Source of the DNA: Naegleria gruberi
Lineage: Eukaryota
Length of the DNA stretch: 64,000 nt
Direction: 5' to 3' (one strand)
NCBI GenBank assembly: GCA_000004985.1
Contig: GG738890.1
The notes under the pieces are model-generated. The model worked only from the letters and a program-made list of their open reading frames with translations, was not told the DNA's origin and ran no database searches. Position numbers and translations under genes: made by a program. This document shows positions 28,436-29,652 of this stretch, one piece after another (within the stretch, counting starts at the first letter, position 1; each line of letters starts with the position of its first letter).

Positions 28436-29652
28436 TTACATTAGTTGACAATTCTTTTTCTTCTTCTTTGGGAATAATTCTCTTTGATTGTAATAAATAA
28501 GCGTTTTGGCAAAAATCTCTGCCAACTCTTTTGTGTTTCCCTCTCCAGTTATTGCTGAACTTTCAACATAGGTACAACAACCTGTAGAACGAGCCATCAA
28601 TTCTCCTTCACTGAAACTAATTGGTGTTGTAAAGTGTTGAAACTTCAACTCTTGGAGAACTTTTAAACTTTTCCTCAAATCAACCTTACATCCTATTAAA
28701 ATAATTGGAATGTCTGGGTTGTAATGCCTAATTTCTGGTATCCATTTGTGTTGAATATTCTCAAAACTATTAGTAGAAACTGTACTAAAGCAAGCACAAA
28801 ATAAATCAGTTTCAGGATAACTCAGCGGTCTTAGTCTGTCATAACTATAATTCAACTTTTAAAAAGAGTATATAACCTTTCAGTACTTACTCTTCCTGAC
28901 CTGCCGTATCCCACAAATAAAATTTAGAAATCTCAATGTTATTATAATGGTATGAAATGGTAGAAGTATCAAATGGAAGGTTGTAATATGTAGGTGCATC
29001 ACCAAAATCCAAATAGTGAATTAACCATGTTTTTCCAACTGATCCATCACCATTAAATATCTGCGTGAATTTGAGTACTCTATCTACATTCAGCTGAAAA
29101 ACAACTTACAATCTTTTTATGATTTGACTTTTGTCCTTCTGTGCAAGATTCCTTAGTCAAATCCACACCTTTCAAAGGTTCCAAATGTTTCTCCTGAATA
29201 GTTGATTTAATTTCCTCAAAATGCTGATAGAGTTCCTCTTTACTGGAACGTATTTTGGCAACTTTTCTTCGTTCTTCTACACTTTCCTCAATTTCCTTTT
29301 CTACTTTTTCCTTTAATTCCAAGAATGTCTTTCTAAAATTGTTTTCCAAATGTAAATATGGGTCATATAATTTATCCATTCTATATCTATTGTAAGATTT
29401 TGGAGCAGAATTTGTAGGATCATGTTTTTTAGTATCTTCCGATGTGAGTCTCTGAATTTTCTTTCTCACATATTCCTTTTGATATTCATCCCGAATTAAT
29501 AAAGAATTAAACGATCGAGAAACCAAACTAAAAGTCTCATGTACAAAAATGCAATCCAAAAAACTGAAAATCACTCCAAACTCATCCTCATTGAGTGATT
29601 GCATTTTTTTCTGATAAACTTTACAAAATAACATGAAATCGTTGATTACCAT
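28436..29652 (-). CDS. Rho/Rac-family small GTPase with CAAX box; gene model joins it to an N-terminal F-box + coiled-coil region (3 exons)
   Basis: Model: exon 1 is 29110..29652, from ATG at 29650 through 'MVINDFMLFCKVYQKKMQSLNEDEFGVIFSFLDCIFVHETFSLVSRSFNSLLIRD...SNHKKI'. Intron 1 is 49 nt (gtaagt...cacgcag). Exon 2 is 28891..29060 ('IFNGDGSVGKTWLIHY...YLWDTAGQE'). Intron 2 is 46 nt (gtaagt...attatag). Exon 3 is 28436..28844 ('[21 protein letters not shown]...GCKVDL...SAITGEGN...KKKKKNCQLM*'). The GTPase domain carries G1, G3, G4 and G5 motifs and the Rho insert. The GTPase reading frame has no ATG of its own, and a TAA lies immediately upstream of exon 2 in that frame. Confidence 0.5.

What the first reader, a model, noticed from the sequence alone, without database searches (positions are those of the whole stretch)
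28436..29652. Candidate F-box + Rho-family GTPase fusion gene
The Rho/Rac GTPase domain has G1-G5 motifs, the Rho insert and a polybasic CAAX tail (KKKKKNCQLM). It has no ATG in its own frame, and a TAA sits immediately 5' of its first exon. The 190-aa ORF directly upstream on the same strand starts with a good F-box-like motif, 'EDEFGVIFSFLDCIFVHETFSLVSRSFNSLL', and continues as coiled coil. It ends on AAG ATT followed by gtaagt. Exactly 49 nt downstream, after a cacgcag acceptor, comes ATA TTT AAT GGT GAT GGA TCA GTT GGA AAA ACA in phase 0. Splicing gives ...KKI/IFNGDGSVGKT..., which is a canonical Rho N-terminus. An F-box fused to a Rho GTPase is not a described architecture to my knowledge. 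RhoBTB is the nearest analogue, being Cullin-linked. Such a fusion would couple a GTPase to SCF ubiquitin ligase.
Basis: partly seen in the sequence, partly recalled or inferred. Interest (0 to 1): 0.6.

Follow-up and report, generated by a model that had tools for sequence, protein, structure and literature searches.

The report
Naegleria F-box-like Rac GTPase gene
This is a real three-exon gene of the amoeba Naegleria gruberi that joins a weak F-box motif to a Rac-type GTPase, but both the gene and this kind of fusion were already published, so it is a minor addition.

Summary
The sequence observation holds. On the minus strand, exons 29604-29110, 29060-28891 and 28844-28436 are joined by GTAAGT...AG introns of 49 and 46 nt. 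They encode a 357-aa protein with an N-terminal F-box-like motif, a helical linker of about 120 aa, a Rac-like GTPase and a KKKKKNCQLM tail.

The window is Naegleria gruberi, not a dictyostelid. The gene is RefSeq XP_002673500.1, which already uses the KKI/IFNGDG junction. Herman et al. 2021 (PMC8296547, Table S8) hand-curated the same fused model.

[quoted passage not shown] The novelty claim therefore fails. This gene carries no F-box flag there.

Here the motif stays below Pfam's cut-off (12.7-17.4 bits; family consensus 19.4; cut-off 20.5). Profile-profile comparison links it to F-box-flagged sister Racs (95% probability, E=3e-8), whose profile hits the solved FBXO3 F-box. The GTPase tree groups it with one of those sisters (97% bootstrap).

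The GTPase lacks the switch-I threonine. Skp1 binding and any SCF role are untested.

Verdict: a new, divergent member of a known Naegleria F-box-Rac family. Interest is low.

The parts
29110..29604 (-). Exon 1: coding for residues 1-165 (MQSLNEDEF...SNHKKI), from the conserved start ATG 29604-29602
   Evidence: ORF and translation. Start codon supported by orthologue L002 and by paralogues that all begin here with an A-rich context. Same start as RefSeq XP_002673500.1.
29605..29652 (-). In-frame upstream ATG (29652) plus 16 codons (MVINDFMLFCKVYQKK); probably 5' leader, not coding
Evidence: In L002 the ATG is deleted, and indels of 6, 7 and 22 nt lie between the two ATGs.
29470..29595 (-). 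F-box-like motif, residues 4-45 (LNEDEFGVIFSFLDCIFVHETFSLVSRSFNSLLIRDEYQKEY), an 'LN-D' variant of the LPxE F-box signature
   Evidence: Pfam PF00646 is the only family hit by the isolated fragment: 16.8 bits, E=0.0063, against a cut-off of 20.5. Family consensus scores 19.4 bits. hhalign to flagged Naegleria F-boxes gives 88%/3e-6 and 95%/3.3e-8 to the LNDD-type subset. dN/dS is 0.27-0.39 among paralogues.
29110..29469 (-). Linker, residues 46-165; largely helical in a low-confidence model, with conserved motifs (NRxxM..LY.PY, N[FY]RK.FLELKEK, ELYQHFEEIKSTI)
   Evidence: AlphaFold helices 72-78, 83-115 and 121-140, with pLDDT 74-76 only for residues 91-110 and about 40-60 elsewhere. Aligns over its whole length to the linker of F-box-flagged XP_002671699.1, BLASTP E=2e-12. 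Family alignment.
29061..29109 (-). Intron 1, 49 nt, GTAAGT...CACGCAG, phase 0, at the linker/GTPase boundary; contains the TAG that ends the unspliced ORF
   Evidence: Length is 45 nt in the orthologue L002, and 47, 36 and 47 nt in the paralogue counterparts L001, L003 and L004, with the junction conserved. Against L002 the intron carries a 4-nt indel while all exons have no indels.
28891..29060 (-). Exon 2: start of the GTPase domain (IFNGDGSVGKT ... WDTAGQE-D), with P-loop, divergent switch I and DTAGQ
29028..29051 (-). P-loop / G1 motif, GDGSVGKT
   Evidence: Translation; aligned to Rac1 GDGAVGKT.
28845..28890 (-). Intron 2, 46 nt, GTAAGT...TTATAG, phase 2, inside the codon for D of QEDYD
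   Evidence: Splicing here restores [20 protein letters not shown], as in Rac1 and in Herman's corrected model. The RefSeq model uses another junction and loses DYDR.
28436..28844 (-). Exon 3: rest of the GTPase (switch II, CKVD G4 variant, Rho insert, SSA G5) and the tail; stop TAA at 28438-28436
28439..28468 (-). Polybasic stretch plus CaaX box, KKKKKNCQLM. The final residue M predicts farnesylation, by established CaaX rules
   Evidence: Translation. The CaaX (CQLM/CELM) is conserved in paralogues; the polybasic run is less so.

Best explanation
The locus is one three-exon protein-coding gene of Naegleria gruberi, RefSeq XP_002673500.1. It encodes a protein of about 357 aa with four parts:

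- A divergent F-box, residues 4-45. It is an 'LN-D-E' variant in which the signature proline is Asn and the late Trp is Phe.
- A linker of about 120 aa that is largely helical in a low-confidence model.
- An atypical Rac-like GTPase. It keeps the P-loop, G12, DTAGQ(Q61), KxD, the Rho insert and SSA, but has lost the switch-I threonine.
- A polybasic CaaX tail (CQLM) that should be farnesylated and hold the protein on a membrane.

The gene belongs to a Naegleria-specific, rapidly evolving expansion of F-box-Rac genes that descend from one ancestral fusion.

Inferred mechanism (not shown here): the F-box docks the protein on Skp1-Cul1-Rbx1. The membrane-anchored GTPase domain then serves as the target-binding or nucleotide-gated module of an SCF ubiquitin ligase. 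This would parallel RhoBTB with Cul3 and Rab40 (SOCS box) with Cul5. The same docking could also control the protein's own turnover.

Shown: gene structure, domain identities, family relationships and purifying selection. Inferred: Skp1 binding, farnesylation, membrane location and any ubiquitin-ligase role.
For: Gene structure:
- Sequence and splice sites.
- Same first junction in RefSeq XP_002673500.1, and an identical curated model in Herman 2021 Table S8.
- Intron position and phase are kept in the orthologue and in three paralogue counterparts, with intron lengths 49/45/47/36/47 nt. Exons have no indels between the window and orthologue L002.

GTPase:
- Pfam Ras 4.3e-28.
- Best solved relatives are Rac1 at 6e-42, then Rac3, Rac2, TC10, Rho1 and Cdc42.
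- Motif alignment.

F-box:
- PF00646 is the only Pfam family hit by the isolated N-terminal fragments and by the family consensus, at 16.8-19.4 bits and E=0.001-0.006.
- The whole N-terminal extension aligns to that of F-box-flagged XP_002671699.1, E=2e-12.
- hhalign of the 5-sequence family profile against 9 flagged Naegleria F-boxes gives 88%/3e-6. Against the LNDD-type subset it gives 95%/3.3e-8, and none of 200 column shuffles reached the score against the full 9-sequence set.
- The 9-sequence profile finds solved beta-TrCP, Skp2, FBXO3 and FBXW7 F-boxes at 4e-8 to 1e-5.
- The LNDD profile alone finds FBXO3 at 7.7e-5. With our family added, it finds FBXO3 at 1.1e-4, and the next four hits are all F-box/WD proteins.
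- Sister proteins XP_002677266.1 and XP_002676320.1 pass Pfam's cut-off, at 25.6 and 23.7 bits.

Common descent: in an NJ tree of GTPase domains alone, this gene and three paralogues group at 100% bootstrap, joined by F-box-flagged XP_002671699.1 at 97%.

Selection: dN/dS is 0.27-0.39 for the F-box-like part, 0.27-0.56 for the linker and 0.15-0.33 for the GTPase.

Against: - The motif never reaches Pfam's gathering score in this gene. Three of the paralogue fragments give no Pfam hit at all.
- The family profile alone finds no F-box among solved structures.
- Against canonical LP-type Naegleria F-boxes alone it scores only E=0.03, a score matched by 10 of 200 shuffles.
- The signature proline is Asn.
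- AlphaFold models of the N-terminus are low confidence (pLDDT about 50-64) and do not show the three-helix F-box. Foldseek found nothing.
- Herman et al. screened this protein with SMART, Pfam and CDD and did not flag an F-box.
- The lost switch-I threonine makes a normal GTP/GDP switch doubtful.
- No transcript, Skp1-binding or localisation data were available.
- Presence of Skp1 and Cul1 in Naegleria was assumed from general knowledge and not checked here.
Confidence: 0.6

Rival explanations
1. The N-terminal motif descends from an F-box but no longer works as one. On this view the extension is a lineage-specific helical module, used for dimerisation, autoinhibition or localisation of an atypical membrane-bound Rac-like protein, with no link to SCF.
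For: - Sub-threshold Pfam scores, and no hit for three paralogue fragments.
- Pro to Asn at the LP signature and Trp to Phe.
- No F-box fold in the AlphaFold models.
- The family profile alone finds no solved F-box.
- Herman et al. describe birth-and-death evolution with pseudogenes, explicitly for the divergent Rab-like clades. In the Rac family the nearest paralogue is flagged a putative pseudogene, and the other Rac-like gene in this window has a decayed F-box helix.
Against: - The motif is the most conserved stretch of the extension across paralogues. Invariant positions include L4, N5, D7, V11, F13-L16, F20, L27 and S31-N33, which match F-box core positions.
- It is under purifying selection, dN/dS about 0.3.
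- The same LN-D variant occurs in sister proteins that do pass Pfam's F-box cut-off.
Confidence: 0.3
2. There are two separate genes. A 190-aa F-box/coiled-coil protein ends at the TAG 29082-29080, and an independent Rho GTPase uses some other 5' exon.
For: Unspliced, the upstream ORF does end at that TAG. No transcript data were available here.
Against: - The GTPase exons have no in-frame ATG, and a TAA lies just upstream.
- Only 49 nt separate the two parts, bounded by consensus GTAAGT...CAG.
- Intron position and phase are conserved in five copies, with lengths 36-49 nt.
- In L002 the intron is 45 nt and open, so read-through there would still give a fused protein.
- RefSeq and a manual curation both fuse the parts.
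- Sister genes share the same extension-plus-GTPase layout.
Confidence: 0.03
3. The gene is a decaying pseudogene from a recent family expansion.
For: The family shows pseudogenisation. XP_002674984.1 is flagged a putative pseudogene, and the second Rac-like gene in the window is degenerate. The switch-I threonine is lost.
Against: - The reading frame and splice sites are intact in both the window and the orthologue L002.
- dN/dS is well below 1 in all three parts among paralogues.
- Herman et al. did not flag this gene as a pseudogene.
Confidence: 0.05

Closest known systems
[quoted passage not shown] 2021, BMC Biol 19:142, PMC8296547, Supplementary Material 3 and Table S8), e.g. XP_002671699.1, XP_002676320.1, XP_002678060.1, XP_002682912.1, and N. 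fowleri Rac28/35/42-44
   Same: - Same layout: N-terminal F-box, helical linker, divergent Rac-like GTPase and CaaX.
- The N-terminal extension is homologous over its whole length to that of XP_002671699.1 (E=2e-12).
- The GTPase domains group together at 97% bootstrap.
- The 'LNDD' form of the F-box start is shared with XP_002678060.1, ACER01000078.1 and XP_002677266.1.
   Different: - The F-box is more eroded here, below Pfam's cut-off, and is not flagged in Table S8.
- The subfamily of four paralogues has no listed N. fowleri orthologue.
- Switch I lacks the conserved Thr. This loss is shared with some sisters but not all; XP_002678060.1 keeps TPTVFDN.
RhoBTB proteins (Rho-like GTPase plus tandem BTB domains; Cul3 adaptors). 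Stated from established knowledge; cited by Herman et al. as also present in Naegleria
   Same: An atypical Rho-family GTPase domain fused in one polypeptide to a cullin-RING-ligase docking module.
   Different: - The docking module here is an N-terminal F-box (Skp1/Cul1 route), not C-terminal BTB domains (Cul3 route).
- No BTB domain was detected.
- This protein keeps a CaaX tail. By established knowledge, most RhoBTBs lack one.
Rab40 (Rab GTPase with a C-terminal SOCS box that recruits ElonginB/C-Cul5). Stated from established knowledge, not tested here
   Same: A prenylated small GTPase carrying a short cullin-adaptor box, proposed to act as a membrane-bound substrate receptor.
   Different: Different GTPase family (Rab against Rho), a different box (SOCS against F-box), a different cullin, and the box lies C-terminal rather than N-terminal.
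Canonical Rac1/Rac2/Rac3
   Same: Best sequence matches, 6e-42, about 43% identity. The P-loop, [17 protein letters not shown], the Rho insert and the polybasic-CaaX tail are all present.
   Different: - A 165-aa N-terminal extension.
- Switch I (YIPTVFDNY) is replaced by YYNLPFDTS, without the Thr.
- G4 is CKVD rather than TKLD.
- CaaX ends in M rather than L.

Membership tests
Rho/Rac family small GTPase | Ras-superfamily G domain, with best matches to Rho-family members | tested here: met
   Pfam Ras 98 bits, 4.3e-28. Top database hits are all Rho/Rac/Cdc42. Top PDB hits are Rac1 at 6e-42, then Rac3, Rac2, TC10, Rho1 and Cdc42.
Rho/Rac family small GTPase | G1 P-loop GxxxxGK[ST] and G3 DxxGQ, with switch II [11 protein letters not shown] | tested here: met
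   GDGSVGKT and [21 protein letters not shown] are present once intron 2 is spliced as proposed.
Rho/Rac family small GTPase | G2: conserved switch-I threonine (Rac1 T35) within YxPTVFDNY | tested here: not met
   Aligned residues are L, H, G and A in the four paralogues. Switch I reads YYNLPFDTS here.
Rho/Rac family small GTPase | G4 [NT]KxD and G5 SA[KL] | tested here: inconclusive
   G4 is CKVD: K and D are kept and the first residue is Cys. G5 is SSA. These variants are compatible with guanine binding, but no biochemistry exists.
Rho/Rac family small GTPase | Rho insert helix between G4 and G5 | tested here: met
   LRKSLKVLQELKFQHFTTPI aligns, with a single 1-residue gap, to Rac1 LRDDKDTIEKLKEKKLTPI.
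Rho/Rac family small GTPase | C-terminal CaaX prenylation box, often preceded by a polybasic run | tested here: met
   KKKKKNCQLM. The CaaX is conserved in paralogues. Prenylation itself cannot be tested here.
F-box domain (Pfam PF00646 / PF12937) | Score at or above Pfam's gathering threshold | tested here: not met
   PF00646 scores 12.7-13.6 bits on the whole protein and the whole extension, and 16.8-17.4 bits on the isolated fragment. The family consensus scores 19.4 bits. The cut-off is 20.5. There is no PF12937 hit, and three paralogue fragments give no hit.
F-box domain (Pfam PF00646 / PF12937) | Profile-level homology to validated F-boxes | tested here: met
   hhalign gives 88%/3e-6 against 9 flagged Naegleria F-boxes, and 95%/3.3e-8 against the LNDD subset. 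Those profiles hit solved F-box proteins at 4e-8 to 8e-5. The link is transitive: directly against LP-type boxes it is only E=0.03, and the family profile alone hits no solved F-box.
F-box domain (Pfam PF00646 / PF12937) | Signature residues: L-P at the start, hydrophobic core of helix 1, V-[SC]-[KR]-x-W in helix 3 | tested here: inconclusive
   L4 is present; P is replaced by N5; D7/E8 are present; the V11-I12-F13..L16 core is present; L27-V28-S29-R30-x-F32 is present with W replaced by F. The same LN-D variant occurs in sister proteins that pass Pfam.
F-box domain (Pfam PF00646 / PF12937) | Three-helix F-box fold | tested here: inconclusive
   AlphaFold gives one long helix over residues 6-55 at pLDDT about 50 in the full-length model. 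The 60-aa model gives helices 6-15, 18-36 and 40-59 at pLDDT 64. Foldseek against the PDB finds no match. The alignment was too shallow.
F-box domain (Pfam PF00646 / PF12937) | Binds Skp1 and assembles into SCF | not testable with these tools
   No complex prediction or experiment was possible. The presence of Naegleria Skp1/Cul1 was assumed, not checked.
Naegleria F-box-Rac expansion (Herman et al. 2021) | N-terminal F-box(-like) plus linker plus divergent Rac plus CaaX, monophyletic with flagged members | tested here: met
   Full-length homology of the extension to XP_002671699.1. In the GTPase-only NJ tree, the grouping with that protein has 97% bootstrap, and the whole clade of N-extended Racs has 100%. 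The gene is listed as 'Rac' in the same table.
RhoBTB | Tandem BTB domains C-terminal to the Rho domain | tested here: not met
   No BTB hit in Pfam. The protein ends in CaaX directly after the G domain.

The most novel reading that the evidence does not exclude
This four-paralogue subfamily, and the wider Naegleria F-box-GTPase expansion, may be membrane-anchored SCF substrate receptors. In them a Rho-type G domain, here with a remodelled switch I, would replace the usual WD40 or LRR module. Target ubiquitination would then depend on nucleotide state or on the lipid-anchored location. Herman et al. raised this as a suggestion and nobody has tested it.
Probability: 0.25. Interest if true: 0.6.

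Novelty: new member of a known kind. Interest (0 to 1): 0.2.

Why it matters
It matters little on its own. The gene and its fused model are already in RefSeq and in a curated table, and F-box-Rho fusions in Naegleria are published.

The modest additions are these:
- A four-member Rac subfamily listed there without any extra domain very probably also carries an eroded F-box. The members are XP_002673500.1, XP_002674984.1, XP_002679223.1 and ACER01000821.1. This slightly enlarges the set of F-box-GTPases.
- The conserved start codon and the second splice site can be corrected.
- The subfamily has lost the switch-I threonine.

If these proteins do bind Skp1, the family would be a natural system for studying GTPase-linked ubiquitin ligases.

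Tried and rejected
- Homology search with the N-terminal 181 aa found only three close Naegleria sequences.
- An exhaustive HMMER profile search of 1.84 billion representatives found only four, all from the same family. The extension therefore has no detectable relatives outside this lineage at sequence level.
- PDB sequence searches with the whole-extension profile and with the 5-sequence motif profile found no F-box.
- Direct BLASTP of the motif against the FBXO3 F-box gave no alignment.
- AlphaFold on the RefSeq protein with 39 sequences, and on residues 1-60 with 5 sequences, gave a low-confidence N-terminus. Foldseek then found nothing.
- A look-up of the paralogue P0003's locus found nothing on record.
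- Literature searches for Naegleria Skp1/SCF were uninformative.
- The dictyostelid origin was rejected.
- The two-gene reading and the pseudogene reading were considered and rejected; see the rival explanations.
- A tandem cluster of the same subfamily was ruled out: tblastn of the window found only one other, very divergent, Rac-like gene 10 kb away.
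Full report
**What is in the sequence**

The feature lies on the minus strand. The 190-aa ORF 29652-29080 reads MVINDFMLFCKVYQKKMQSLNEDEFGVIFSFLDCIFVHETFSLVSRSFNSLL... and ends ...AAG ATT at 29110, followed by GTAAGT. After 49 nt, ending CACGCAG at 29061, comes ATA TTT AAT GGT GAT GGA TCA GTT GGA AAA ACA. 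In that downstream frame a TAA sits at 29108-29106, and there is no ATG before or within the exon. The GTPase therefore cannot start on its own.

A second intron of 46 nt (28890-28845, GTAAGT...TTATAG) restores [21 protein letters not shown]. The reading frame ends KKKKKNCQLM-TAA at 28436.

**Identity of the locus**

The spliced protein matches 'rho family GTPase [Naegleria gruberi]' (XP_002673500.1 / EFC40756.1, 354 aa) at 99% identity. The window is therefore Naegleria gruberi, a heterolobosean, and not a dictyostelid.

The RefSeq model already uses the junction ...NHKKI/IFNGDGSVGKT.... It starts at the second ATG (MQSLNEDEF) and uses a different second junction that deletes DYDR.

Herman et al. 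2021 (PMC8296547, Table S8) list this accession as a manually corrected 'Rac'. Their sequence is identical to the 373-aa model starting at 29652. The gene is not flagged as a pseudogene, and its 'additional domain' column is empty.

**Comparative test of the gene model**

Four contigs from one ENA metagenome (ERZ929261) come from a very close relative of the sequenced strain:
- L002 is the orthologue, about 98-99% identical in exons.
- L001, L003 and L004 are counterparts of three paralogues.

Between the window and L002 the three exons have no indels. Intron 1 carries a 4-nt indel, 49 nt against 45 nt. In the paralogue counterparts the intron sits at the same phase-0 position, just before I-[IF]-x-G-D-G, and is 47, 36 and 47 nt long. 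An intron kept in position and phase while free to change length by non-multiples of three is what a true intron predicts. It is not what two separate genes predict.

The same comparison shows that ATG 29652 is not conserved. It is deleted in L002, with indels of 6, 7 and 22 nt between the two ATGs. All paralogues begin at the equivalent of ATG 29604, in a GAAAAAAATG context. The protein is therefore most likely 357 aa.

Nei-Gojobori dN/dS among paralogues is 0.27-0.39 for residues 1-45, 0.27-0.56 for the linker and 0.15-0.33 for the GTPase. All three parts are under purifying selection.

**The GTPase**

Pfam Ras scores 4.3e-28. The best solved relatives are Rac1 (6e-42), Rac3, Rac2, TC10, Rho1 and Cdc42.

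Present features are the P-loop GDGSVGKT, DTAGQ with the catalytic Gln, the Rho-type switch II, the Rho insert, a KxD motif (CKVD), SSA, and a polybasic CaaX ending in Met. By the established CaaX rule, the final Met predicts farnesylation.

The switch-I threonine is not present. YIPTVFDNY of Rac1 is YYNLPFDTS here. The aligned residue is L, H, G or A in the four paralogues, and is also lost in sisters XP_002671699.1 and XP_002676320.1. 'G1-G5 all present' is thus an overstatement. This is an atypical Rac, whose effector loop and probably its switching behaviour are remodelled.

**Is the N-terminus an F-box?**

Direct evidence is weak but specific. PF00646 scores 12.7-13.6 bits on the whole protein and the whole extension, and 16.8-17.4 bits on the isolated motif. 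It scores 19.4 bits (E=0.001) on a consensus of the family. For the isolated fragments and the consensus it is the only one of 24,736 Pfam families reported, but it stays below the 20.5-bit cut-off. Three paralogue fragments give nothing. The family profile alone finds no F-box among PDB sequences.

The stronger evidence is transitive. Table S8 contains many N. gruberi Rac proteins flagged 'F-box'.
- One of them, XP_002671699.1, aligns with this protein's whole 165-aa extension (BLASTP E=2e-12).
- In an NJ tree of GTPase domains alone, the same protein is sister to our four-paralogue clade at 97% bootstrap. All N-terminally extended Racs form a 100% clade.
- A profile of nine flagged Naegleria GTPase-linked F-boxes recovers solved beta-TrCP, Skp2, FBXO3, KDM2A and FBXW7 F-boxes at 4e-8 to 1e-5, so it is a valid F-box profile.
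- hhalign of our 5-sequence profile against it gives 88% probability and E=3e-6.
- Locally, against the four 'LNDD-type' members, hhalign gives 95% and 3.3e-8. LNDD-type against LP-type gives 96% and 7.8e-9. None of 200 column-shuffled controls reached the score against the full nine-sequence set.
- The direct comparison with LP-type boxes alone is only E=0.03, a score reached by 10 of 200 shuffles.
- The LNDD profile alone hits the solved FBXO3 F-box at 7.7e-5. With our family added it is still 1.1e-4, followed only by F-box/WD proteins.
- LNDD-type and related sisters straddle Pfam's cut-off at 18-25.6 bits, and two of them pass it.

The residues invariant across our paralogues (L4, N5, D7, V11, F13-L16, F20, L27, S31-N33, L35) fall on F-box core positions. 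The signature Pro is replaced by Asn and the late Trp by Phe.

Structure prediction did not help. The N-terminus came out at pLDDT about 50-64, without a three-helix bundle, and Foldseek found nothing.

My reading is that descent from an F-box is likely, at about 0.8. Retention of Skp1 binding is an open question, at about even odds.

**What is already known**

What is new is small:
- This subfamily, listed without a domain, probably belongs with the F-box-Racs. Its members are XP_002673500.1, its putative-pseudogene paralogue XP_002674984.1, XP_002679223.1 and ACER01000821.1.
- None of the accessions of this subfamily that were searched appears in the N. fowleri sheet, which records N. gruberi counterparts. 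No N. fowleri orthologue is listed.

**Mechanism**

The best-supported working model is a farnesylated, membrane-bound atypical Rac whose N-terminal F-box docks on Skp1-Cul1. In that arrangement the G domain acts as the substrate-binding or gating module of an SCF ligase, or the docking controls the protein's own turnover. This is functionally parallel to RhoBTB-Cul3 and Rab40-Cul5, both cited from established knowledge.

Every step after 'the domains are there' is inference. The main rival is that the box has decayed into a plain helical extension. The two-gene and pseudogene readings are disfavoured by the data above.

**Verdict**

The finding is a new, divergent member of a known, published kind. 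Interest is about 0.2.

Noticed in passing
window 39418-40423 (+): A second, very divergent Rac-like gene lies 10 kb away on the other strand. It is the newly predicted model ACER01000440.1** of Herman 2021 Table S8. Its P-loop is GQAGSGKN, DTAGQ is missing, and NKVE replaces NKxD. A short ORF just upstream (39418-39521, MKQRKQRVVVGKKTKICDLNDDMFRVIYQFLVHN*) carries an LNDD-type F-box helix 1 but then meets in-frame stops. This suggests a decayed or mis-modelled F-box exon.
   Followed up: partly
L001 420-1596 (ENA ERZ929261 contig) versus P0003 / XP_002674984.1: The closest paralogue is flagged a putative pseudogene in strain NEG-M, where the RefSeq model lacks the F-box and P-loop. Its counterpart in the metagenome relative is an intact 360-aa F-box-like-Rac ORF with good splice sites. 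The copy is thus variable between close strains.
   Followed up: partly
It is absent from the orthologue and from all paralogues. The conserved start is ATG 29604.
   Followed up: yes
window 28845-28890 (-): RefSeq XP_002673500.1 uses a different second splice junction and so loses DYDR from switch II. The GTAAGT...TAG intron given here restores the canonical Rho sequence and agrees with Herman's correction.
   Followed up: yes
window 29710-29781 (+) and 29867-29938 (-): tRNA-Pro(UGG) and tRNA-Met(CAU) genes lie 58-290 nt upstream of the gene's start, leaving a very short promoter region. The tRNA-Pro neighbourhood is conserved in L002. A third tRNA, Lys(UUU), is at 47953-48025.
   Followed up: no
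window 1-4000: GC content falls to 15-22%, against about 30% elsewhere. ORFs with Pfam matches nevertheless lie there: a sub-threshold LETM1-like hit at 77-1174(-) and an FAD/BBE oxidase at 2267-3796(+).
   Followed up: no
window 24148-28359 and 30174-33319: The immediate neighbours are unrelated genes. They are a TRIP4/ASCH-like protein (24148-25689 -), a ribosomal S27a-type ORF (25869-26390 +), a 655-aa ORF with no Pfam hit that starts 77 nt downstream of the GTPase stop (26392-28359 -), a small ORF with a weak, sub-threshold CD59-like Pfam hit (30174-30581 -) and an alpha/beta hydrolase (32195-33319 -).
   Followed up: no
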